Below, in pieces: positions 21,031 to 32,041 of a stretch of DNA of 34,288 nt. The DNA is taken from the NCBI GenBank assembly GCA_001805125.1, contig MHEF01000022.1, forward strand, positions 1 to 34,288, written 5' to 3'. Both the position numbers and the translations under genes were made by a program. Position 1 is the first letter of the stretch, and every line of letters begins with the position of its first letter. The notes under the pieces are model-generated. The model was not told the origin of the DNA. It made no database searches and was given only the letters and a program-made list of their open reading frames with translations. This stretch comes from Nitrospirae bacterium RBG_13_39_12 (GTDB lineage Bacteria > Nitrospirota > Thermodesulfovibrionia > Thermodesulfovibrionales > SM23-35).

Positions 21031-21689
21031 TTAAATCACGTTCTTCTTAAATTCTTCTACTCCGATACGTTGTATAAATCGTGGCAGTCTTTCCCTAGCT
21101 TTAGCATTTTTTGAATAATAGTCAACGCATTTCTTTATAAGTTCGAAAGCTTCGTTATCGGTGCGTTTTTCTGCAATTACATCTCCAACGCGCGGTCTCC
21201 CACCAGAATTGCCTCCTATCACAACAGTCCAGCCTTCAGGTGCAGCTAATGCTCCGATATCTCTTAAATAACTTTCTCCACAACATAGTTTGCAGCCAGA
21301 AATACCGAATTTTGTTTTAGCCGGAATAAGACCTTCTTTACCCACATACATTTTTTCAATCTTTGCAGCAAGTCCCAATGAATCTCCCTGTCCAAACTTA
21401 CAGGTTTCTGTCCCCGGACATGCCTGAACATAATGTACACATAAACCCACTGCAGGACCGATATCCATCCCGAGGTCTTTCCACGCATTTTCAATATCTT
21501 CAGGTTTTATTCCGACAAGAGCAATACGCTGGCCTGATGTTATCTTTATTATCCGAACCTTGTACTTGCGTGCAACTTCTGCCAGTTTCTCAAGAATCTC
21601 AGGGGTTAAAACACCCATTGGAATCCTTGGCACAATTGCATATGTTTCTTTGTCCCTTTGCAGAATAGCCCCTTTTATTTCTTCACTCA

Positions 21690-21690
<1 letters not shown>
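21031..21690 (-). CDS. small nitrite/sulfite reductase 4Fe-4S/siroheme-domain protein (low-molecular-weight assimilatory-type sulfite reductase-like)
   Basis: 219 aa. Cys clusters 'CPGTETC' (Cx5C) and 'GCKLCCGE' are spaced as in the siroheme-[4Fe-4S] site. An N-terminal ferredoxin-like half-domain 'IKITSGQRIALVGI' is present. The start overlaps the psd stop (TAATG). Confidence 0.7.
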
Positions 21691-23777: not shown

Positions 23778-24413
23778 TTATATTCCTCTTCTACCCGAAC
23801 CGAAAATATAATTATGAATCTGAAGGTTCAAACGTACTTTAAGCCCGTCTTCGATCATCCATCCAGCAAGGTCTTCGGGTTTAAGAATTCCATAGGCAGG
23901 AGAAACAAGGATGTTGCATCTGTCGAATAAGTTGTATTTATTCATTATATCCTTAGACCATTCATAATCGATCTTGTTCGTGATTACAAACTTCACCTCA
24001 TCAATATTTTTTATAACATTTAGATTTGACATATCCATCTTTCCGCTCATACCACTACCCGGGGTCTTTATATCCAATATAATAACCGCTCTCCTATCAA
24101 TCTCTTTTATACTAAGCGATCCATTAGTTTCTATAAGTACTTTATAGTTATCATTAAGCATTCTTTCAATTAGATGATACACTTCTTTCTGAAGAATAGG
24201 CTCTCCGCCTGTAATTTCTACAAGGTTTATACCGGCTGACTTTACCTGTTTTATAATATCTTCTTCAGAAATTTCATTTCCTTCATAATACGCATATCTT
24301 GTATCGCAATAGGAGCATCTTAGATTGCAGCCTGTTAATCTTATGAATGTGCACGGGATTCCTGCATAAGTTGACTCACCCTGTATACTTCTAAAAATCT
24401 CACATACCTTCAT
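23778..24413 (-). CDS. queE: 7-carboxy-7-deazaguanine synthase (radical SAM)
   Basis: 211 aa. 'EIFRSIQGESTYAGIPCTFIRLTGCNLRCSYCDT' is the QueE-type Cx14Cx2C/CxxxCxxC radical-SAM N-terminus. Confidence 0.9.
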   Translation of the reverse strand: MKVCEIFRSIQGESTYAGIPCTFIRLTGCNLRCSYCDTRYAYYEGNEISEEDIIKQVKSAGINLVEITGGEPILQKEVYHLIERMLNDNYKVLIETNGSLSIKEIDRRAVIILDIKTPGSGMSGKMDMSNLNVIKNIDEVKFVITNKIDYEWSKDIMNKYNLFDRCNILVSPAYGILKPEDLAGWMIEDGLKVRLNLQIHNYIFGSGRRGI

Positions 24414-24514: not shown

Positions 24515-27500
24515 ATGGCTTCAGATATACAAACAGCAACTTCATCAAAATATGAAATCTTACGGGAAGTAGTTAAAGACTACCCCGGAATCCTTAGTTC
24601 AACCGAACCACTATTAAATGAACTTAATAATCATCCTAAAAAATGGGGTACTGTTGTAAAAGAAATGCGAACTTATGCCATGAAAAATTTCTATTTACAT
24701 GATCACTACGAAAAAGGCATTGAAGCAGTCAGTACTATTATTGATGTTTTACTGGAAGCTATTACCTTATCTGACATTCCTGTACAACAAGCAGCTATAG
24801 ACTGTCTTTTGTTTTATCTGGAAAAAATACTGCTTGATTGTGAAAATATCAAAAAATATAAATCTGTACTAAATGAATGCTTCACCAATTTAAATAACCT
24901 GCCTGAAAAACAGTTTTTCCTACTGATAACCAACCCTCATCAGTTAAAAAAGCTAGGACAGATCATACTTACAAAGATGCCTGCCGGTTTTGACTTTGAA
25001 GAACTAAATAATCTTTTGTACAGGTCTCTTCTTATAACTTATAAATACTGGCTTAATGTTGAAGACCCTGTAAAATGGTTTAAAAAAACTATAGATACTT
25101 CTTTAGGTGAAAAGTTCAACAACGAAATAGAAGAATCATTTTATTCTGTATCACATGATAATTTTAATAGTTTAATTCTTCACCTTAAGAGTATCAAGAA
25201 ACTTAAAGATCAATCTCTATTCCTCGAAGAACTTTTAAGACTACCAGGGTTTCTACAGTTGGTTAAATTCTATGAAGATATTACCTCTACATTACCTCAA
25301 ACAGGTGATATATATAAAGACTTCAACTTGAAGGTGTCATATCTTCTGAAAATACTTGAAACCAATGGACTTTCCAGTATACATGAAAGTACATTCAGGG
25401 AAATTAATCGTACCATATCAAATGCTATCAAAAATGTACCACCATATAAAATAAAGGATATACTTTCTGAAACATTTGCTATTTTGAAAAATAGTAACAA
25501 TATATATCCTGAAGCAGCTCTTTACTGCATACAGGGGATAGGCAATGAGATATTCAACCTGAATGATAGTAATCTTGTAGAATGGTACATACAGAAAATC
25601 ATCCCATTAGGATTCCAGTACCCGAATATAAAGGGAGCAACCGATGAGTGGCAGGTTAAATCTAACCATGCCCATTTAGAAAATATACGTGTATGGCTGG
25701 AATTGATCGAAAATAATCCAAAATGGTCTAAGTCACTTATTTCTGCTTTAATCATTAATATCACCTTAGGCGGAATACATATAAGTGATACCGATCTTTT
25801 CCAGAAAGACATTACCAAACTTCTTAACAGTGACATCAAACCAGTCTATTACTTAATTAAACAATTGGCCAAATTGTTTCCTGCCTATTTTAGTGAAATA
25901 GGTGCTGAAGGCGCATTACGTGAGGTATCAACTGAACTGGATGAGATTAATGGAAGGTCTGATTTACTTGTACATTTTTTACGAAAACAAAGCCATGTTG
26001 AGAGCAGTGCTCGTGTTGTTAGTCTCATAGAGGAGATTATAAAGTTCTGGCTTACAAGAGACAAAGCCTCTTTAAAAGAATTTTTACCTGAAGATATTTA
26101 TCCTCATGTCGATTCATCAGGTATATACATAGACGAACTCAATATTATTTTTAGCTCTATTTTCAACAGCAAAGGAATCAGTAATATTACTGACCTTTTA
26201 AATTTAAAAGAAGAAGATTTCAAAGCTATTACTGATGAAATTCCCAATGTATCTGAAAAAGAGAAAAGACGGGCATTGCTGACTATTAAATTTTATAAGC
26301 TGCTTGACAAGAAATACAAACTGAACCCTAGGGATATTAAAGACCAACTAAAAATTTCTCAGGGTTTAGGGCTTCCAAATACAGAGTTGCTGATTAATAT
26401 TTTAGAAAAAGGAAATGTCTATGAGCGGCTTGAAGGTATCTTAGGCTATCTGCAATTATTAAAGGATATCATCCTTTCTCCTGAAAGGTATGAAGCTGTT
26501 GAGAATATATTCCGCAAGAGGCATATTGCCGCAGGTATACCTTCAATGTACGGAAGTTATCATGAAAGAAAATTTGATGCGCTTTCTTTAACGTTTCGTC
26601 TGGAGAATTATGCCAACATTCTTTTTGAAGAATTAATAAATTCAATTAATCTCAAATTTATCACAAGAGCTTCATTATTTCAGATCAAAAATTTCATAAA
26701 ACTATTCTTTACTGCCATGCAATTAGATGGGATATCCTCCAGCAGGCTTGAGAATACACTGGAACTTTTATCCGTAGCTTTAGAGGTAAGAAGATTTACG
26801 TTTACACAGTATATCGACATATTCAGGAGCTTTTCAGAAGCTGTTCAGGATATAGTTAATACTTATTACAGCGGCATACATAAAAACAATCTCAGGCACA
26901 TTATACTTCAGCTCGGTTCAGATAAAATATTGCCTAAATACTTTGTACAGCATGACAGGCACAGCGACTTTGAGCTTATTAATATGGTAACAGAAGCGTT
27001 TCTAAGAGACTTTGTTTCCAGCTCTTTTGGTCTACAGCAGCTGGACAATTTTATAATTAAAATACTTAAAACGCTATTTAAACAGGCAGAAGATTTGGAT
27101 ATACAGAATCTGGACTTGCTGATGAGCTACGACCCTAAGAAAGCTTTATCCAGCATTTATACCCCTAATAAAGCCACCTACGACAGAATTCATCTGGGTA
27201 ATAAAGGATATAACCTTATAAGAATGTCATCTTTGGATATCTCTGTTCCCCCGGGTTTTATTATCACTTCAGAGGTGTTTCGTTGCAGACAGGCAATAAA
27301 TAAATTCCGTTTTGTCAGAGATAATCTTAATAAAAAGATTAACAAACAGATTTTGGAACTCGAAAGAGTTACAGGCAAATATTTCGGGCATATTGATAAT
27401 CCATTGCTTGTATCAATAAGGAGTGGTGGGGCAATCTCCTTGCCCGGCATGATGATTTCTTTTCTTAATGTTGGAATTAACGAAGACATTGTAGCAGGAT

Positions 27501-28666
27501 TAATAAAACAGACGGGCAAGCCCTGGTTTGTTTGGGACTGTTATAGGCGCTTCTTGCAAGGTTGGGGAATGTCTTTTGGCATTGAAAGGGACAGATTTGA
27601 TTATGTCATCAATTCTTTTAAAAATAAATACAAGGTTCCAAGAAAAATTCAGTTTACTCCTGAACAGATGAGAGAGGTGGCGCTTGCTTATCGTGAAATC
27701 ATTAAAAGTAAAGGGATAGAAGTGGTTGATGATCCGAGAATCCAACTTGAGACAGCAATATCTCAGGTTTTTCAATCCTGGTTTTCTAAAAAGGCCCATG
27801 ATTACCGTGAGATACTTGGTCTTTCTGAAAACTGGGGGACAGCAGTCATTGTACAGGCAATGGTTTATGGTAACCTGGATATTAACTCAGGCACAGGTGT
27901 TCTTTTTACACGCAATCCAAAGGAGTCCGGAGACAGGGTGATGCTATGGGGTGATTTTGCTTTGAGAGCACAGGGCGAGGATATAGTATCGGGACTGATA
28001 AAGACATTGCCTTTATCTAAAGAGCAACAGGATATTGAAGAGAGAACACAAGACATTTCATTGGAAGAAAGTTTTCCAGAGATATATAATATGTTGTTGA
28101 AAATAGTCAAGGACTTAATTTATAAAGAAAGATGGGGTGCTCAGGAAATCGAATTCACCTTCGAAGGTAAAGATAAGGATAAACTTTATATCCTCCAGGC
28201 ACGTGACATGTCTATCAGAAGGACAGAAAGTTTTATGGCATTTGTTCCATCTAAAGAGCTTTATTTAAAATATCTTTCCAATGGGATAGGAGTAGGCGGT
28301 GGTGCACTGAGTGGAAGAGTTGTTTTTGATTTAAACGGAATTAAAGAGTTCAGAGAAAAAGACCCGGACATACCACTTATTTTGATTCGATCAGATACCG
28401 TTCCTGATGATATCAGGCATATTTCAGAATCTGATGGACTTCTTACCGCACGTGGTGGTTCAACTTCTCATGCAGCAATTATTGCAAACCGGCTCGGAAA
28501 AACCTGTGTGGTAGGGTGTAATAATTTAATTGTATTGGAACATGAAAAAAAATGTAAATTCAAAAGACGTACTTTAAAAGAGGGTGATTACTTGAGCATT
28601 GATGGCAGGAACGGCTCGGTTTATATGGGCAGACATCAGGTGAAGGAAATCAGAATATCAGCATGA
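24515..28666 (+). CDS. large multidomain dikinase-like protein: unassigned ~885-aa N-terminal region + PPDK-type nucleotide-binding (ATP-grasp) domain + phospho-histidine swivel domain; no PEP/pyruvate TIM-barrel domain
   Basis: The ORF is open from TTG 24509, but ATG 24515 sits 6 nt after AAGGA. All aa numbers for this gene count from the TTG at 24509. PPDK-like blocks at aa ~893-1240 (nt ~27185-28228) are 'LGNKGYNL', 'SIRSGGAISLPGMMISFLNVG', 'WDCYRRFLQGWG', 'GTGVLFTRNP...AQGEDIVSG' and 'QEIEFTFE...LYILQARD'. The swivel domain at aa ~1255-1380 has 'LLTARGGSTSHAAIIANRLGKTCVVGC' (His1321 at nt 28469-28471). The protein ends right after 'SIDGRNGSVYMG'. Confidence 0.8.
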   Translation: MASDIQTATSSKYEILREVVKDYPGILSSTEPLLNELNNHPKKWGTVVKEMRTYAMKNFYLHDHYEKGIEAVSTIIDVLLEAITLSDIPVQQAAIDCLLFYLEKILLDCENIKKYKSVLNECFTNLNNLPEKQFFLLITNPHQLKKLGQIILTKMPAGFDFEELNNLLYRSLLITYKYWLNVEDPVKWFKKTIDTSLGEKFNNEIEESFYSVSHDNFNSLILHLKSIKKLKDQSLFLEELLRLPGFLQLVKFYEDITSTLPQTGDIYKDFNLKVSYLLKILETNGLSSIHESTFREINRTISNAIKNVPPYKIKDILSETFAILKNSNNIYPEAALYCIQGIGNEIFNLNDSNLVEWYIQKIIPLGFQYPNIKGATDEWQVKSNHAHLENIRVWLELIENNPKWSKSLISALIINITLGGIHISDTDLFQKDITKLLNSDIKPVYYLIKQLAKLFPAYFSEIGAEGALREVSTELDEINGRSDLLVHFLRKQSHVESSARVVSLIEEIIKFWLTRDKASLKEFLPEDIYPHVDSSGIYIDELNIIFSSIFNSKGISNITDLLNLKEEDFKAITDEIPNVSEKEKRRALLTIKFYKLLDKKYKLNPRDIKDQLKISQGLGLPNTELLINILEKGNVYERLEGILGYLQLLKDIILSPERYEAVENIFRKRHIAAGIPSMYGSYHERKFDALSLTFRLENYANILFEELINSINLKFITRASLFQIKNFIKLFFTAMQLDGISSSRLENTLELLSVALEVRRFTFTQYIDIFRSFSEAVQDIVNTYYSGIHKNNLRHIILQLGSDKILPKYFVQHDRHSDFELINMVTEAFLRDFVSSSFGLQQLDNFIIKILKTLFKQAEDLDIQNLDLLMSYDPKKALSSIYTPNKATYDRIHLGNKGYNLIRMSSLDISVPPGFIITSEVFRCRQAINKFRFVRDNLNKKINKQILELERVTGKYFGHIDNPLLVSIRSGGAISLPGMMISFLNVGINEDIVAGLIKQTGKPWFVWDCYRRFLQGWGMSFGIERDRFDYVINSFKNKYKVPRKIQFTPEQMREVALAYREIIKSKGIEVVDDPRIQLETAISQVFQSWFSKKAHDYREILGLSENWGTAVIVQAMVYGNLDINSGTGVLFTRNPKESGDRVMLWGDFALRAQGEDIVSGLIKTLPLSKEQQDIEERTQDISLEESFPEIYNMLLKIVKDLIYKERWGAQEIEFTFEGKDKDKLYILQARDMSIRRTESFMAFVPSKELYLKYLSNGIGVGGGALSGRVVFDLNGIKEFREKDPDIPLILIRSDTVPDDIRHISESDGLLTARGGSTSHAAIIANRLGKTCVVGCNNLIVLEHEKKCKFKRRTLKEGDYLSIDGRNGSVYMGRHQVKEIRISA

Positions 28667-28713
28667 CACCCGGATATTAACATTGAATAATTATAAAGGG
28701 GGTTACAAATAAT

Positions 28714-29991
28714 ATGGCTTTAAAAGGGAAAGTAAAAATGATATCTGAAAATAAACCTGTCCTTGGCATAAACGGTTTGGGTAGAATCGGGAAGCTAACA
28801 CTCTGGCATCATATATCCAGAAAATATTTTTCAGATATAATCATAAACATCGGAAGAAAAGTTGGGACTAAAATAGAGGACATCGCCCTTTATATTGAGA
28901 AAGATTCTACTTATGGAACATTACAACGCTATATTTACGGTCACAAGGAAAAAAGAATAATCAATAACCTTAATGAAGACAAGGGTACCATGCTAATAGA
29001 CGGCATTCCGGTAACTGTCTTAAGGGAAACACGTAACCCGAAAAATATCCCTTGGAGTAATTATGGGGCAAAGGTAGTTGTTGAAAGTACCGGCGTTTTC
29101 AAAGACCCTACAACTCCCCCTGATGATAAAAACGGCTCTGCAAGGGGGCACCTGGATGCAGGTGTGCAAAAAGTAATTGTTTCAGCACCCTTTAAAATTA
29201 AAACAAAAGGTCTATCAACTCCTGATGATGCAACAACTATCGTAATAGGTATCAACGACGACAAATACGATCATGCTAAACATCATATTATTTCAGCCGC
29301 ATCATGTACTACTACCTGTCTTGCATATATGATAAAGCCCCTACTGGATTACTTCGGTCAGAAGAAAATCCTGAGTGCCTCAATGGCAACGATCCATGCT
29401 GTAACTGGTACACAGGAGGTACTTGACAGACTTCCAAGCGCTGGTGCAACTGATTTAAGGAAAAACAGAAGTGTTATGAATAATATTATTCTGACTACTA
29501 CCGGTGCAGCTAAAACCCTTGGGCTTGTAATCCCTGAAATGAATAAAATAGGATTTATAGCTGAATCAGTGCGCATACCGATCGCTACAGGATCATTAAT
29601 TATTCTGGTACTTGCTTTTTGCGACGAAGTAGGAGGTCCTACAATTAATAGAAATCTCATTAATAACATTTATCGTGATGCTGAGAAGAAGGATAAAATG
29701 GGTTATATCAAGTATACAGATGAACAGAATGTATCTTCGGATATAATTGGAATGTTCGGTCCAGCTACAATTATTGAAGGTAATGAGACACACACAAGAA
29801 CAGCTTTTGTAGATCTTGACCCCTCAAAACTTTTAAAAGCACCAGGTTTAACCTCAGGTCAACTCCCTTCCAGTCTTGAAATACCAATTACGCAAGCCTC
29901 TATTTACGGATGGTATGATAATGAGTTGGGGAGCTATACCAAGATGCTCGGCGATCTTACTGTCAAGGTAGCTTCTATGGTTTATCAGTAG
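28714..29991 (+). CDS. glyceraldehyde-3-phosphate dehydrogenase-like dehydrogenase (long form with insertions)
   Basis: 425 aa. It has the NAD loop 'LGINGLGRIGK', the catalytic 'SAASCTTTCLA' (Cys198 at nt 29305-29307), 'TIHAVTGTQ', 'TTGAAKTLG', 'SVRIP' and 'GWYDNELGSY'. It is about 90 aa longer than canonical Gap because of several insertions. An alternative start is ATG 28738. It lies 47 nt downstream of the dikinase-like gene. Confidence 0.8.
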   Translation: MALKGKVKMISENKPVLGINGLGRIGKLTLWHHISRKYFSDIIINIGRKVGTKIEDIALYIEKDSTYGTLQRYIYGHKEKRIINNLNEDKGTMLIDGIPVTVLRETRNPKNIPWSNYGAKVVVESTGVFKDPTTPPDDKNGSARGHLDAGVQKVIVSAPFKIKTKGLSTPDDATTIVIGINDDKYDHAKHHIISAASCTTTCLAYMIKPLLDYFGQKKILSASMATIHAVTGTQEVLDRLPSAGATDLRKNRSVMNNIILTTTGAAKTLGLVIPEMNKIGFIAESVRIPIATGSLIILVLAFCDEVGGPTINRNLINNIYRDAEKKDKMGYIKYTDEQNVSSDIIGMFGPATIIEGNETHTRTAFVDLDPSKLLKAPGLTSGQLPSSLEIPITQASIYGWYDNELGSYTKMLGDLTVKVASMVYQ

Positions 29992-30028: not shown

Positions 30029-30142
30029 ATGAATATTGCAATCTTAGACGCTCCCGGATGTGTAGGTCGCACAATTGTAAAAAAACTTCTCAATTATTCA
30101 CACTACAAGATTACTGCTTCATATCGCAAAGATGAAATATGA
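30029..30142 (+). pseudogene. 37-codon stub resembling the N-terminus of an NAD(P)-binding Rossmann (NmrA/SDR-like) protein
   Basis: 'MNIAILDAPGCVGRTIVKKLLNYSHYKITASYRKDEI*' resembles 'MKIAILGATGxVGxxIvxxLL...H.V.a..R' with a degraded glycine motif. It terminates after the first beta-alpha-beta unit. Confidence 0.35.
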
Positions 30143-30146
30143 TTTG

Positions 30147-31747: not shown

Positions 31748-32041
31748 TCCTCGCCCCAAGGAGCGGGGCATCTTAGGCGCAGCTCAAAGCTGCTGCGCAG
31801 GCCCTTGCTCTATATCTCTATGATGCTTGATATATTTATCAATGATTTGACGAGTCAGACGTTCTCCAACTGTCCTAGCGAAGTATCCGTCTTCCCAAAG
31901 TTCACCAGACCAAAGCCGCTTCTTCAATCGCGGATACACGCGGAACAGTTCCCTCGCACTTATGCTTTTTATTATCCTTACCACATCACCAATAAAATGC
32001 TTCGGTGCAAACTAAACCAATATGTCCACTTTTTCTATCCT
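31748..32041 (-). mobile_element. IS200/IS605-family tnpA fossil (C-terminal two-thirds, inactivated) with GC-rich subterminal hairpins
   Basis: The minus-strand translation is 'IEKVDILV*FAPKHFIGDVVRIIKSISARELFRVYPRLKKRLWSGELWEDGYFARTVGERLTRQIIDKYIKHH'. It aligns to the Y1 (HUH) transposase pattern '..HvHLLv..pPk.s.s..v...Kg.ssr.l...fp.lkk..W...fW..gYf..TvG......i..YI..Q'. The HUH histidines are lost, there is an in-frame TAG at 32012-32014 and the N-terminal ~60 aa are missing. GC-rich hairpins lie at 31753-31769 (GCCCC/GGGGC) and 31777-31798 (GCGCAGC/GCTGCGC). Confidence 0.7.

What the first reader, a model, noticed from the sequence alone, without database searches (positions are those of the whole stretch)
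24515..29991. Two-gene module: novel dikinase-like protein and GAPDH-like dehydrogenase, candidate undescribed phosphotransfer/redox system
The two genes are co-directional and only 47 nt apart (28667-28713), with no hairpin or terminator between them. The unit is flanked by a divergent queE on one side and a decayed gene stub on the other. It therefore looks like a self-contained bicistron.

Two hypotheses, both inference only:
1. The dikinase activates a carboxylate such as 3-phosphoglycerate to an acyl-phosphate at the cost of ATP -> AMP, and the GAPDH-like enzyme reduces it. That would be an irreversible, PGK-independent gluconeogenic or carbon-fixation bypass.
2. The dikinase phosphorylates a polymer or protein, and the dehydrogenase has a moonlighting or regulatory role.

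I am not aware of a described system pairing a TIM-barrel-less PPDK homologue with a Gap homologue.
Basis: inference. Interest (0 to 1): 0.85.

Follow-up and report, generated by a model that had tools for sequence, protein, structure and literature searches.

The report
Conserved dikinase plus GAPDH-like gene pair
A 1,383-residue enzyme built from the ATP- and histidine-carrying half of pyruvate phosphate dikinase plus a large domain of unknown fold sits next to an unusual glyceraldehyde-3-phosphate dehydrogenase, and this undescribed pair is kept together in bacteria of about fourteen or more phylum-level groups, which points to an unknown step or control point in central sugar metabolism.

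Summary
Two co-directional genes lie 47 nt apart with no terminator or stable hairpin between them: 24515-28666 ("DIK", 1383 aa) and 28714-29991 ("GAPL", 425 aa).

DIK has three parts:
- an 880-aa all-helical N-terminal domain with no Pfam family, no PDB sequence match and no structural relative;
- a PPDK-type ATP-grasp domain;
- a C-terminal phosphohistidine swivel domain, with no TIM barrel.

All tested ATP/Pi-site residues and the catalytic His are invariant in 196 homologues.

GAPL is a distinct GAPDH subfamily. It keeps Cys149, His176 and both phosphate sites. It replaces Asp32 with an invariant Gly-Arg, which suggests NADP(H), and it carries seven insertions.

The decisive new result is linkage:
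- GAPL lies just downstream of DIK in 100 of 126 evaluable DIK-seeded loci.
- DIK lies next to or near GAPL in 61 of 68 GAPL-seeded loci.
- The pairs come from about 14 or more phylum-level groups, at DIK identities down to about 33%, and in three gene orientations.
- Other lineages place a canonical gap beside DIK, or embed the pair in gap-pgk-tpiA operons.

No paper describes the pair.

My best reading (about 0.35) is a PPDK-like 3-phosphoglycerate/1,3-bisphosphoglycerate dikinase coupled to an NADP-GAPDH. The main rival (about 0.27) is a VadK-like regulatory kinase of GAPDH. The chemistry is untested.

The parts
24515..28666 (+). DIK: 1383-aa dikinase-like protein (novel N-terminal domain + PPDK ATP-grasp + phosphohistidine domain)
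   Evidence: ORF. Ribosome-binding site AAGGA lies 6 nt upstream. Full-length homologues of 1335-1540 aa occur in many phyla.
24515..27154 (+). N-terminal domain (aa 1-880), all-helical, uncharacterised
   Evidence: No Pfam hit even at E<=10. No PDB sequence hit with a profile. AF2 model pLDDT 80.9, 46 helices, no strands. Foldseek finds only generic HEAT/ARM solenoids at TM<=0.2. The family has 517 clusters at 50% identity.
25787..26005 (+). Conserved core loops of the N-terminal domain: DTDLFQKD (aa 425-432), EIGAEG (461-466), FLRKQSHVES (488-497)
   Evidence: Invariant or nearly invariant across relatives at 25-45% identity. They fall in or beside the low-pLDDT loops of the model. Coordinates.
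26516..26560 (+). Conserved motif KRHIAAGIPSMYGSY (aa 668-682)
   Evidence: K668, R669, H670, I675, P676, S677, Y679, G680 and Y682 are invariant in alignment A2. The motif served as the scan pattern [GD]IPSMYGxY, which found 574 genome loci.
27173..28213 (+). PPDK-type ATP-grasp (AMP/ATP- and Pi/PPi-binding) domain, aa 887-1233
   Evidence: PF01326, E=1.9e-30. TIGR01828 396.6 bits, NF004531 305.5 bits. Best PDB match is C. symbiosum PPDK residues 17-518 at 275.8 bits. K22, R92, G101, R134, R135, E323, Q335 and R337 equivalents are invariant in 196 sequences.
28274..28651 (+). PEP-utilizers mobile (phosphohistidine swivel) domain, aa 1254-1379; catalytic His1319 codon at 28469-28471
   Evidence: PF00391, E=1.8e-18. 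In the GGSTSHAA motif the His455 equivalent is invariant in 196/196 and the Thr453 equivalent in 193/196. The protein ends about 4 residues after this domain, so there is no TIM barrel.
28667..28713 (+). 47-nt intergenic spacer with ribosome-binding site AAAGGGGG
   Evidence: no terminator and no significant structure.
28714..29991 (+). GAPL: 425-aa GAPDH-like dehydrogenase of a distinct subfamily
   Evidence: PF00044 and PF02800. TIGR01534 scores 329.1 bits, below its 367.2 cut-off. About a third identical to canonical GAPDHs: 31-35% to canonical gap genes of related loci, best PDB match 146 bits. The family alignment has 98 members.
28846..28860 (+). NIGRK (aa 45-49), replacing the N-D(32) dinucleotide-specificity position of NAD-dependent GAPDH
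   Evidence: The GAPL family consensus is 'vvNiGR' with G and R >=90% conserved. Canonical neighbours keep 'NDL'.
29302..29406 (+). Catalytic segment: SCTTT (Cys149 equivalent, aa 198) to TIHAVT (His176 and Thr179 equivalents)
   Evidence: >=90% conserved in 98 GAPL sequences. Coordinates.
29788..29895 (+). Largest GAPL-specific insertion (about 28 aa within aa 359-394), before the WYDNE strand
   Evidence: Present in the GAPL family and absent from B. stearothermophilus GAPDH and from the 30 canonical gap neighbours.
23778..24413 (-). queE (divergent neighbour; not part of the module)
   Evidence: TIGR04349 252 bits. It neighbours DIK only within Nitrospirota and has moved or is absent in L009, L011 and L012.
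30030..30143 (+). 37-codon ORF, possible remnant of an NAD(P)-binding protein gene (not part of the module)
   Evidence: Sequence. PF13460 E=0.07, below threshold.

Best explanation
DIK and GAPL are a two-enzyme unit at the triose-phosphate step of gluconeogenesis/glycolysis.

**Shown by sequence**
- DIK has a complete PPDK-type first half-reaction site (ATP + Pi + His <-> AMP + PPi + His~P).
- DIK carries a C-terminal, singly tethered phosphohistidine domain.
- GAPL has the complete catalytic and phosphate-binding apparatus of a phosphorylating GAPDH.

**Inferred**
- The phosphohistidine domain swings to a second site formed by the conserved, Arg/Lys/His/Asp-rich loops of the novel N-terminal domain.
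- There it transfers the phosphoryl group to the carboxylate of 3-phosphoglycerate: 3-PG + ATP + Pi <-> 1,3-bisphosphoglycerate + AMP + PPi.
- GAPL then reduces the labile acyl-phosphate to glyceraldehyde-3-phosphate, probably with NADPH, because Asp32 is replaced by Gly-Arg.
- The pair would be a dikinase-driven route parallel to PGK plus NAD-GAPDH. That is analogous to PEP synthase/PPDK running beside pyruvate kinase, and to the kinase plus acyl-phosphate reductase operons proBA, argBC, ask-asd and gap-pgk.
- Run in reverse, the same reaction would make ATP from AMP + PPi.
For: **1. Reciprocal, cross-phylum gene linkage**
- GAPL lies <=800 nt downstream of DIK in 100/126 evaluable DIK-seeded loci.
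- DIK is adjacent or near in 61/68 GAPL-seeded loci.
- There are 147 non-identical pairs: 127 co-directional (median apparent gap 33 nt, 29 with <=10 nt) and 20 on opposite strands.
- So proximity survives rearrangement.

**2. The link is to the GAPDH step itself, not to one paralogue**
- In Desulfobulbales, Thermodesulfobacteriales, Desulfocicer and Thermodesulfatator a canonical gap lies <=700 nt upstream of DIK (17/126).

**3. Operon context is the triose-phosphate block**
- DIK-GAPL-pgk-tpiA occurs in L033, L052, L055 and L145.
- DIK-GAPL-gap-pgk-tpiA occurs in L042, L046, L069, L074 and L097.

**4. DIK is catalytically intact**
- K22, R92, G101, R134, R135, E323, Q335, R337 and H455 equivalents are invariant in 196 sequences.
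- DIK scores closer to PPDK (396.6 bits), which uses Pi/PPi, than to PEP synthase (98.4 bits), which uses water.

**5. GAPL keeps the machinery that makes or uses an acyl-phosphate**
- Cys149, His176, Thr179, the basic S-loop residues, Thr208-Gly209 and Arg231 are conserved.
- GAPL lacks Asp32. From established GAPDH enzymology, Asp32 excludes NADP.

**6. The N-terminal domain looks like an active or binding site**
- It has motifs invariant across 25-45% identity that are rich in R/K/H/D/E, such as DTD, EIGAEG, RKQSH and KRHI..GIPSMYG.Y.E.KF.

**7. DIK and GAPL divergences are tightly correlated**
- r = 0.90; Mantel test 0/500 permutations reach it.
- The module is therefore inherited or transferred as a unit.
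Against: - There is no biochemical evidence of any kind.
- The N-terminal domain has no recognisable fold relative. Its first ~365 residues look like a HEAT/ARM solenoid, which is typical of protein-binding scaffolds rather than small-molecule sites.
- As far as I know, no dikinase of this superfamily phosphorylates a carboxylate.
- PGK is encoded in the same operon in several lineages. The route would be redundant unless the two are differentially regulated, and together they could cycle ADP + Pi <-> AMP + PPi.
- The only characterised TIM-barrel-less PPDK relative (VadK, PMC13400623) is a regulator, not a metabolic dikinase.
- Some distant DIKs carry an N-terminal hemerythrin sensor domain, which is more usual in signalling proteins.
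- About 10% of DIK loci, mostly Desulfobulbaceae, have no gap gene within 6-8 kb.
- NADP preference is inferred from one position only.
Confidence: 0.35

Rival explanations
1. DIK is a regulatory phosphohistidine kinase or scaffold for GAPDH, in the manner of VadK. It autophosphorylates from ATP according to adenylate/PPi/Pi status. Through its helical-solenoid N-terminal domain it binds GAPL or the canonical GAPDH. It then changes GAPDH activity or assembly, either by binding or by phosphorylating it. No small-molecule substrate is phosphorylated.
For: - M. tuberculosis VadK (Rv1127c) is a PPDK derivative without a TIM barrel. It autophosphorylates on His422, is encoded in the same region as prpC/prpD (rv1130-rv1131; gene positions from my own knowledge of the M. 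tuberculosis genome), pulls down methylcitrate synthase and dehydratase, and tunes flux (PMC13400623).
- DIK's C-terminal half scores 305.5 bits on the Rv1127c-type model NF004531.
- The N-terminal domain matches only HEAT/ARM protein-binding solenoids.
- Hemerythrin sensor fusions occur in P0275 and P0276.
- DIK neighbours either GAPDH type.
- GAPL-specific surface insertions could be docking sites.
- From memory, HPr and Crh bind and inhibit B. subtilis GapA, so phosphocarrier control of GAPDH has a precedent.
Against: - The densest conservation in the N-terminal domain lies in short loops rich in charged residues, which looks more like a catalytic or ligand site than a flat interface.
- DIK is closer to true PPDK (396.6 bits) than to the VadK-type model.
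- DIK keeps every Pi/PPi-site residue.
- A 1,383-aa regulator kept in stoichiometric, often abutting or overlapping gene arrangement with its target is unusual.
- VadK's own mechanism is still a working model.
Confidence: 0.27
2. DIK phosphorylates another small molecule of the triose node, for example glyceraldehyde, dihydroxyacetone or glycerate. GAPL acts on the product, or on a close analogue such as erythrose-4-phosphate.
For: - Dikinases of this superfamily typically phosphorylate hydroxyl or enol oxygens: PPDK, glucan water dikinase, rifampin phosphotransferase (PMC4844700, listed) and hydroxyphenylethanone kinases (PMC12167813, listed).
- Phospho-His relays phosphorylate dihydroxyacetone in the PTS-dependent DhaKLM system (from memory).
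- Linkage to the GAPDH step would also fit a reaction one step upstream of G3P.
- GAPL scores 107 bits on the Epd model.
Against: - GAPL retains both the Ps and Pi sites of a G3P/1,3-BPG enzyme.
- GAPL scores three times higher on type I GAPDH than on Epd.
- The operon partners are pgk and tpiA, not genes of a glyceraldehyde- or DHA-forming pathway.
- No conserved third gene suggests a source of free triose.
Confidence: 0.13
3. DIK is still a pyruvate/PEP dikinase whose TIM barrel has been replaced by a new PEP-binding domain. It sits next to GAPL only because both are the anabolic isoenzymes of gluconeogenesis and are co-regulated.
For: - The ATP/Pi/His half is very PPDK-like.
- Public annotations call it 'pyruvate, orthophosphate dikinase'.
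- In B. subtilis the gluconeogenic gapB and pckA genes are co-regulated (from memory).
- Many hosts live on acetate, fatty acids or CO2.
- In 11 Desulfobacterales loci, genes that I read from their translations as CO dehydrogenase/acetyl-CoA synthase subunits lie upstream. No family search was run on them.
Against: - Every residue of the PEP/pyruvate site is missing together with the TIM barrel.
- A pathway-level link would predict neighbours such as eno or gpm as often as gap. Yet gap is the only strongly conserved neighbour across phyla and orientations.
- Whether the same genomes also carry a canonical PPDK or PpsA could not be tested here.
Confidence: 0.08
4. DIK phosphorylates a polymer (glycogen-like glucan) or another macromolecule, as plant glucan water dikinase does. 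The GAPDH linkage would then be indirect.
For: - A glycogen/starch synthase gene lies two genes upstream of DIK in 13 Desulfobulbales loci.
- An alpha-glucan phosphorylase lies nearby in L252.
- The large non-catalytic-looking N-terminal domain could bind a polymer.
Against: - These neighbours are lineage-restricted, whereas the gap linkage is universal.
- No carbohydrate-binding module is detected.
- The domain order differs from that of glucan water dikinase.
Confidence: 0.07

Closest known systems
Pyruvate, phosphate dikinase (PPDK, EC 2.7.9.1; e.g. Clostridium symbiosum 1KBL/1DIK)
   Same: - The ATP-grasp nucleotide/Pi domain and the phosphohistidine swivel domain are clearly homologous: 275.8 bits to residues 17-518.
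- All tested catalytic residues are conserved.
- DIK therefore very probably performs ATP + Pi + His <-> AMP + PPi + His~P.
   Different: - DIK lacks the C-terminal PEP/pyruvate TIM barrel.
- Instead it has an 880-aa helical domain at the N-terminus.
- The His domain is the C-terminal end and is tethered on one side only.
- TIGR01828 scores 396.6 bits against a cut-off of 843.
VadK / Rv1127c of Mycobacterium tuberculosis (PMC13400623)
   Same: - It is a PPDK derivative without a TIM barrel that keeps the ATP-grasp and catalytic His.
- It is encoded near the metabolic enzymes it acts with.
- DIK scores 305.5 bits on the corresponding NCBIfam model NF004531.
   Different: - VadK is about 490 aa with no extra domain. 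DIK has an additional 880-aa conserved domain.
- VadK's partners are methylcitrate-cycle enzymes, not GAPDH.
- DIK is below the NF004531 cut-off (456) and closer to true PPDK.
- VadK is restricted to actinomycetes, whereas DIK occurs in about 14 or more phylum-level groups.
Rifampin phosphotransferase and other 'PpsA-like' swivel kinases (PigC/HapC, hydroxyphenylethanone kinase, phenylphosphate synthase, glucan water dikinase)
   Same: They share the same logic: an ATP-grasp loads a mobile His domain, which carries phosphate to a separate, family-specific substrate domain. As in DIK, the His domain of RPH is C-terminal (PMC4844700).
   Different: - Sequence similarity is weak: 17-42 bits on the RPH/PigC/PRK06241 models.
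- The substrate domains are unrelated.
- These enzymes use water rather than Pi as second acceptor.
- None of them is linked to GAPDH.
Type I phosphorylating GAPDH (GapA; gluconeogenic NADP-dependent GapB of Bacillus subtilis as functional analogue)
   Same: - GAPL has the Rossmann GxGxxG motif, Cys149/His176, the Ps and Pi sites and the WYDNE motif.
- Like GapB-type enzymes it lacks the NAD-specifying Asp32 (GapB detail from memory).
   Different: - GAPL is only about a third identical to canonical GAPDHs: 31-35% to canonical gap genes of related loci, best PDB match 146 bits.
- It has seven family-specific insertions (about 90 extra residues), one of them in the S-loop.
- It falls below the TIGR01534 cut-off.
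- It is almost always encoded beside DIK.
Kinase + acyl-phosphate reductase gene pairs (pgk-gap, proB-proA, argB-argC, ask-asd)
   Same: This is a functional analogy only. An ATP-dependent enzyme makes a labile acyl-phosphate, and a Cys-dependent dehydrogenase encoded next to it reduces that product.
   Different: In those pairs the kinase is an ordinary ATP -> ADP kinase of unrelated fold. Here it would be an ATP -> AMP dikinase acting through phosphohistidine. This is inferred, not tested.

Membership tests
Pyruvate, phosphate dikinase (TIGR01828 / PF01326+PF00391+PF02896) | N-terminal ATP-grasp nucleotide- and Pi-binding domain with K22, R92, G101-M103, R135, E323, Q335, R337 | tested here: met
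   PF01326 E=1.9e-30. These residues are invariant in 196 DIK sequences; D321 is Glu in 195 of them.
Pyruvate, phosphate dikinase (TIGR01828 / PF01326+PF00391+PF02896) | Central phosphohistidine domain with the T453-S-H455 motif | tested here: met
   PF00391 E=1.8e-18. His invariant in 196/196, Thr in 193/196.
Pyruvate, phosphate dikinase (TIGR01828 / PF01326+PF00391+PF02896) | C-terminal PEP/pyruvate-binding TIM barrel | tested here: not met
   No PF02896 hit. The protein ends about 4 residues after the His domain. The remaining 880 aa are predicted all-helical.
Pyruvate, phosphate dikinase (TIGR01828 / PF01326+PF00391+PF02896) | Score above the curated equivalog cut-off | tested here: not met
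   396.6 bits against a cut-off of 843.45.
Pyruvate, phosphate dikinase (TIGR01828 / PF01326+PF00391+PF02896) | Catalyses pyruvate + ATP + Pi <-> PEP + AMP + PPi | not testable with these tools
   Needs an enzyme assay.
VadK / Rv1127c-type truncated PPDK (NF004531) | ATP-grasp + His domain, no TIM barrel | tested here: met
VadK / Rv1127c-type truncated PPDK (NF004531) | About 490-534 aa two-domain protein scoring above the model cut-off | tested here: not met
   DIK is 1383 aa with an extra 880-aa domain. It scores 305.5 bits against a cut-off of 456.
VadK / Rv1127c-type truncated PPDK (NF004531) | Regulatory interaction with neighbouring metabolic enzymes rather than metabolite turnover | not testable with these tools
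   Needs pull-downs and kinetics. No multimer prediction was available.
Type I phosphorylating GAPDH (TIGR01534) | Rossmann fold with GxGxxG; catalytic Cys149 and His176 | tested here: met
   GINGLGRIGK, SCTTT and TIHA are >=90% conserved in 98 GAPL sequences.
Type I phosphorylating GAPDH (TIGR01534) | Ps and Pi anion sites (T179, R195/R197 region, T208-G209, R231) | tested here: met
   Conserved or conservatively replaced: 'DLRknRS', 'TtTgAAk', 'SVRiP'.
Type I phosphorylating GAPDH (TIGR01534) | Score above the curated cut-off; length about 330-340 aa | tested here: not met
   329.1 bits against a cut-off of 367.2. GAPL is 425 aa with seven insertions.
Type I phosphorylating GAPDH (TIGR01534) | Asp32 (NAD+ specificity) in NAD-dependent members | tested here: not met
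   Replaced by Ile followed by an invariant Gly-Arg across the GAPL family. Canonical neighbours keep N-D.
Type I phosphorylating GAPDH (TIGR01534) | Oxidative phosphorylation of G3P to 1,3-BPG | not testable with these tools
   Needs an enzyme assay.
Rifampin phosphotransferase / PRK06241 PpsA-like kinases | Full-length similarity including the family's substrate-binding domain | tested here: not met
   Only 17-42 bits over about 85-150 residues of the ATP-grasp, against cut-offs of 866-1700.
Glucan, water dikinase | N-terminal carbohydrate-binding modules; the His domain precedes the C-terminal nucleotide-binding domain | tested here: not met
   No CBM detected. The domain order here is N-domain, then ATP-grasp, then His.

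The most novel reading that the evidence does not exclude
DIK is a previously unknown central-metabolism enzyme, a 3-phosphoglycerate, phosphate dikinase: 3-PG + ATP + Pi <-> 1,3-BPG + AMP + PPi. Its acceptor site lies in a new protein fold. Together with a dedicated NADP-GAPDH it forms a PGK-independent, PPi-linked route between 3-PG and G3P. The route would operate in hundreds of mostly anaerobic species from about 14 or more phylum-level groups.
Probability: 0.3. Interest if true: 0.92.

Novelty: new variant of a known kind. Interest (0 to 1): 0.8.

Why it matters
- **A possible new reaction in a settled pathway.** The reactions between 3-phosphoglycerate and glyceraldehyde-3-phosphate are regarded as among the most settled in biochemistry. 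Here a large, catalytically intact PPDK-derived enzyme carries an 880-residue domain of unknown fold. It is locked to a special GAPDH in at least about 570 species-level genomes from about 14 or more phylum-level groups. That suggests either a new AMP/PPi-linked reaction at this step or a new mode of GAPDH control.
- **Physiological consequences.** Either reading would change how carbon and energy budgets are modelled for syntrophs, sulfate reducers, Cloacimonadota, sediment Bacteroidota, Thermoleophilia and others. In metagenome-based reconstructions this gene is currently counted as 'PPDK'.
- **A new domain.** The result would define a new protein domain.
- **Directly testable.** Two soluble proteins need to be made, and cultured hosts exist: Desulforhabdus sp. 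TSK, Desulfocicer vacuolatum DSM 3385 and Calditrichales bacterium MX18-03.

Tried and rejected
1. **Fold assignment of the N-terminal domain.**
   - Two AF2 models were made: aa 1-892 (pLDDT 80.9) and aa 330-892 (pLDDT 74.8).
   - Foldseek against the PDB gave only generic HEAT/ARM solenoids at TM <= 0.2, or nothing at E <= 0.001.
   - Pfam at E <= 10 gave only a chance-level VID27_PH hit.
   - A profile search of PDB sequences gave two chance-level hits.
2. **Link to dissimilatory sulfur metabolism.** I considered that the module recycles the AMP + PPi made by sulfate activation, because the first 98 loci were all Nitrospirota or Thermodesulfobacteriota. I rejected this as a general explanation once Actinomycetota, Acidobacteriota, Gemmatimonadota, Bacillota, Bacteroidota, Cloacimonadota, Spirochaetota and others turned up.
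3. **DIK as a replacement for PGK.** Rejected, because pgk lies in the same operon in at least 9 loci.
4. **A third conserved partner gene.** Clustering all flanking ORFs of 162 loci gave only lineage-restricted neighbours:
   - checked by family search: queE and glycogen synthase;
   - named only from my reading of their translations: genes that look like CODH/ACS, ptsN, rapZ and lptB;
   - around the gap-less Desulfobulbaceae DIK genes the flanking ORFs are unrelated.
5. **Canonical PPDK genes in the flanks.** I looked for them to test redundancy. None were present, which is uninformative.
6. **Source contig of the window.** Not on record.
7. **Literature.** Six full-text searches found no description. 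One earlier query was rejected for syntax.
8. **RNA elements in the window.** Rfam and tRNA scans found nothing.

Full report
**1. Observation**

- The window holds two co-directional ORFs: 24509/24515-28666 and 28714-29991.
- The ATG at 24515 follows an AAGGA ribosome-binding site, and the GAPL ATG follows AAAGGGGG.
- The 47-nt spacer has no terminator-like site and folds no better than shuffled sequence (z = +0.8).
- A promoter-like hexamer pair falls in the spacer, but such matches are at chance frequency.
- queE is divergent upstream.
- Downstream lie a 37-codon ORF with only a sub-threshold NAD(P)-binding resemblance (E = 0.07), then an intact GrpB gene and a YdjM gene on the other strand.
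- The rest of the window is ordinary housekeeping: leuA, pssA, psd, ilvC, nadC, an EamA transporter and an IS200-type transposase fragment.
- No Rfam family and no tRNA were found.

**2. The large protein (DIK)**

*Known domains*
- Pfam sees only PPDK_N (aa 935-1165 as best stretch) and the PEP-utilizers mobile domain (aa 1291-1369).
- NCBIfam places aa 887-1383 closest to true PPDK (TIGR01828, 396.6 bits). Next comes the mycobacterial truncated 'PPDK' model NF004531 (305.5 bits). PEP synthase is far weaker (98.4 bits), and the RPH/PigC-type kinases weaker still (17-42 bits).
- The best solved relative is C. symbiosum PPDK residues 17-518 (275.8 bits).
- I rebuilt that fragment from the printed alignment and aligned it with 196 DIK sequences. 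K22, R92, G101, R134, R135, E323, Q335, R337 and H455 are invariant. D321 is Glu in 195, and T453 is kept in 193.
- The machinery for ATP + Pi + His <-> AMP + PPi + His~P is therefore intact. This is shown at sequence level; the activity itself is inferred.
- The protein ends about 4 residues after the His domain, so there is no TIM barrel.

*The first 880 residues*
- They have no Pfam family even at E <= 10 and no PDB sequence relative with a profile.
- AlphaFold2 predicts 46 helices and no strands (pLDDT 80.9).
- Foldseek returns only generic HEAT/ARM solenoids at TM <= 0.2. For the conserved core alone (aa 330-892) nothing reaches E <= 0.001.
- Conservation is uneven. Residues 1-365 have few invariant positions.
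- Residues 366-500, 649-700 and 827-844 hold motifs invariant across relatives only 25-45% identical: DTDLFQKD, F.EIGAEG.LR, HFLRKQSHVES and KRHI..GIPSMYG.Y.E.KF.
- Stretches within or next to these motifs are the low-confidence loops of the model.

**3. The dehydrogenase (GAPL)**

- It has both GAPDH domains but scores below the type I GAPDH cut-off (329.1 against 367.2).
- It is about a third identical to canonical GAPDHs: 31-35% to the canonical gap genes of related loci, with a best PDB match of 146 bits.
- GAPL keeps GINGxGRIGK, Cys149, His176, Thr179, the basic S-loop residues, Thr208-Gly209, Arg231 and WYDNE.
- So it should still form or consume an acyl-phosphate on a phosphorylated substrate.
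- The family differs in three ways:
  - Asp32 is replaced by Ile followed by an invariant Gly-Arg;
  - the S-loop is lengthened;
  - there are seven insertions, the largest about 28 residues near the C-terminus.
- Loss of Asp32 is a known route to NADP(H) use in GAPDH (established enzymology, cited from memory). NADP preference is therefore inferred, not shown.

**4. Linkage (the decisive evidence)**

*Size of the family*
- Close homologues of DIK are abundant in Nitrospirota.
- An exhaustive search with the N-terminal domain found 517 clusters at 50% identity (202 at E <= 1e-30).
- Nearly all full-length members are 1335-1540 aa and carry the same C-terminal half.

*DIK-seeded loci*
- Three scans gave 173 loci, 162 of them non-redundant.
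- GAPL (46-91% identical) lies <= 800 nt downstream on the same strand in 100 of the 126 loci with enough flank. That is 99 by script plus L058, where the genes overlap.
- In 17 of 126 loci a canonical gap (about 320-335 aa, 30-35% identical to GAPL) lies <= 700 nt upstream of DIK. These are Desulfobulbales, Thermodesulfobacteriales, Desulfocicer vacuolatum and Thermodesulfatator atlanticus.
- Ten of the 100 loci evaluable on both sides have no gap gene within 6-8 kb. They are mostly Desulfobulbaceae, plus two Riflebacteria.

*GAPL-seeded loci (the reciprocal test)*
- The scan was ranked against a Clostridia GAPL.
- Of 68 evaluable loci, 42 have DIK immediately upstream on the same strand.
- 19 have DIK on the opposite strand close by, usually adjacent. 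It is convergent in Smithella, Syntrophorhabdus and an Acidobacteriota MAG, and divergent in a <-gap <-DIK GAPL-> arrangement in Thermoleophilia.
- Only 7 have no DIK within 7 kb.

*Phyletic range, taken from record titles*
- Nitrospirota
- Thermodesulfobacteriota
- Actinomycetota (Acidimicrobiia, Thermoleophilia, Coriobacteriaceae)
- Acidobacteriota/Aminicenantes
- Gemmatimonadota
- Myxococcota
- Eisenbacteria
- Bacillota (Clostridia, Anaerovoracaceae, Syntrophomonadaceae)
- Bacteroidota
- Cloacimonadota
- Spirochaetota
- Calditrichota
- Riflebacteria
- one record titled Geobacter sp., and CSSED10-310

*The 147 non-identical pairs*
- 127 are co-directional, with a median apparent gap of 33 nt, and 29 have <= 10 nt. 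These gaps come from longest-ORF starts and so may be underestimated.
- 20 lie on opposite strands.
- The DIK and GAPL pairwise distances correlate with r = 0.90, and 0 of 500 Mantel permutations reach that value.
- Part of this correlation reflects shared species phylogeny.
- Near-identical modules also occur in different phyla. A Calditrichales GAPL is 82% identical to a Clostridia one, which indicates transfer as a unit.

**5. Wider context**

- The only neighbour conserved across phyla is gap.
- Where more is conserved, it is the triose-phosphate block:
  - DIK-GAPL-pgk-tpiA in L033, L052, L055 and L145;
  - DIK-GAPL-gap-pgk-tpiA in L042, L046, L069, L074 and L097;
  - gap-pgk 2.4 kb upstream in L009.
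- PGK therefore coexists with the module.
- Lineage-restricted neighbours:
  - genes that I read from their translations as CO dehydrogenase/acetyl-CoA synthase subunits, in 11 Desulfobacterales loci (no family search was run on them);
  - glycogen synthase, in 13 Desulfobulbales loci;
  - an alpha-glucan phosphorylase, in L252.
- All of these fit carbohydrate anabolism and storage, but none is general.

**6. How it most likely works**

*Shown*
- DIK has an intact PPDK-type loading site and a mobile His domain.
- GAPL has an intact phosphorylating-GAPDH site.
- The two genes show an exceptionally conserved, orientation-independent association with each other.
- DIK also associates with canonical gap genes in some lineages.

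*Inferred*
- The His domain delivers phosphate at the conserved, charged loops of the new N-terminal domain.
- Gene pairs of an ATP-dependent kinase and a Cys-dependent acyl-phosphate reductase are a recurrent operon logic (pgk-gap, proBA, argBC, ask-asd). GAPL still has its Pi site. The most economical acceptor is therefore 3-phosphoglycerate: 3-PG + ATP + Pi <-> 1,3-BPG + AMP + PPi, followed by NADP(H)-dependent GAPL.
- Using standard free energies from memory, this reaction is near equilibrium, a few kJ/mol.
- It could drive gluconeogenesis harder than PGK when PPi is removed. Run backwards, it could recover ATP from AMP + PPi.
- Many hosts are energy-limited anaerobes living on acetate, fatty acids, aromatic acids or CO2.
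- I put this reading at about 0.35.

**7. Rivals**

- **VadK precedent (about 0.27).**
  - M. tuberculosis VadK (Rv1127c) is a TIM-barrel-less PPDK derivative. It autophosphorylates on His422 and binds methylcitrate synthase and dehydratase.
  - It is proposed to regulate them rather than turn over a metabolite (PMC13400623).
  - The solenoid-like N-terminus of DIK and the hemerythrin-fused variants P0275 and P0276 fit a sensor or regulator that binds GAPDH.
- **Lesser rivals.**
  - Another triose-node acceptor: 0.13.
  - A pyruvate/PEP dikinase with a new substrate domain, co-regulated with an anabolic GAPDH: 0.08.
  - A glucan or polymer kinase: 0.07.
- **No functional link at all.** This is very unlikely given sections 4 and 5.

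**8. Comparison with what is known**

- DIK works like a swivel-domain dikinase. It is not a member of PPDK: the TIM barrel is absent and the score is below cut-off.
- It is not VadK-type either: it has an extra 880-aa domain, scores below cut-off and has different partners. It is not RPH/PigC-type.
- GAPL is a GAPDH-superfamily enzyme outside the curated type I family.
- Six full-text searches found no description of the large protein, of the GAPL subfamily as such, or of any AMP/PPi-dependent counterpart of PGK.
- Public annotation calls them 'pyruvate, orthophosphate dikinase' or 'PEP/pyruvate-binding domain-containing protein', and 'glyceraldehyde 3-phosphate dehydrogenase NAD-binding domain-containing protein'.

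**9. Verdict**

- The specific chemistry remains inference. Two corrections apply: the route would run parallel to PGK rather than replace it, and a regulatory precedent exists.
- I file it as a new variant of a known kind: a swivel dikinase with a new acceptor domain, coupled to a new GAPDH subfamily.
- Interest is high because of its breadth, its position in central metabolism and its direct testability.

**10. Limits**

- Loci were selected as the 80 best per scan, so the counts are not a random sample and are phylogenetically non-independent.
- GAPL and canonical gap were told apart by relative tblastn score and length.
- ORF starts are approximate.
- Whole-genome presence or absence of pgk, gap, ppdK and a second GAPL could not be tested.
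- No multimer prediction was available.
- Model coordinates could not be inspected, so clustering of the conserved loops in 3D is unverified.

Noticed in passing
window 31784-31984 (-): A 66-aa ORF matches only the C-terminal half (profile positions 69-120 of 121) of the IS200-like Y1 transposase (PF01797, E=1.4e-12). It is a transposase fragment between the YdjM and EamA genes.
   Followed up: partly
window 30030-30143 (+): A 37-codon ORF (MNIAILDAPGCVGRTIVKKLL...) resembles the N-terminus of an NAD(P)H-binding protein only at E=0.07. In related loci L001 and L003, YdjM follows GAPL directly, so GrpB and this stub look like a local insertion or rearrangement.
   Followed up: partly
P0275, P0276 (distant DIK homologues, 1455 and 1540 aa): These two carry an N-terminal hemerythrin HHE cation-binding domain (E=3.9e-8 and 3.3e-12) in front of the DIK N-terminal domain. 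This suggests O2/redox/iron sensing in one clade. Their genomic context could not be fetched.
   Followed up: partly
P0385, P0388, P0331 (1462-1480 aa): These divergent relatives match only aa ~340-855 of the N-terminal domain (28-33% identity) and have a different ~450-aa N-terminus. They may be a paralogous subfamily. Their gene neighbourhoods were not examined.
   Followed up: no
L174 (Calditrichales bacterium MX18-03) compared with L141 (Clostridia MAG): Their GAPL proteins are 82% identical across phyla, and both have DIK upstream. This suggests recent horizontal transfer of the whole module.
   Followed up: partly
L044, L054, L056, L057, L059, L061, L062, L067, L082, L093, L094, upstream of DIK: Three ORFs that I read from their translations as acetyl-CoA synthase/CO dehydrogenase and corrinoid Fe-S protein genes (clusters of 737, 447 and ~300 aa; not checked by a family search) lie directly upstream of DIK-GAPL in these 11 Desulfobacterales loci.
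   Followed up: partly
L068, L085, L087 and 10 further Desulfobulbales loci: The gene order is aroC, glycogen/starch synthase, canonical gap, DIK, with a HAD-family hydrolase after DIK in L085 and L087. These lineages show no GAPL within 6 kb.
   Followed up: partly
window 21031-21690 (-): A small 219-aa protein has both nitrite/sulfite reductase domains (PF03460 + PF01077) next to psd. It is conserved in the same position in several related Nitrospirota loci (o21031 hits in L010, L012, L016, L017).
   Followed up: no
L191, L194, L210, L214, L219, L221, L233: In these seven loci GAPL has no DIK within 7 kb and sits in unrelated contexts (xanthine-dehydrogenase-like gene, C25 peptidase, DprA, GGDEF protein, WhiA/CofD). 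Whether DIK is elsewhere in those genomes is unknown.
   Followed up: partly
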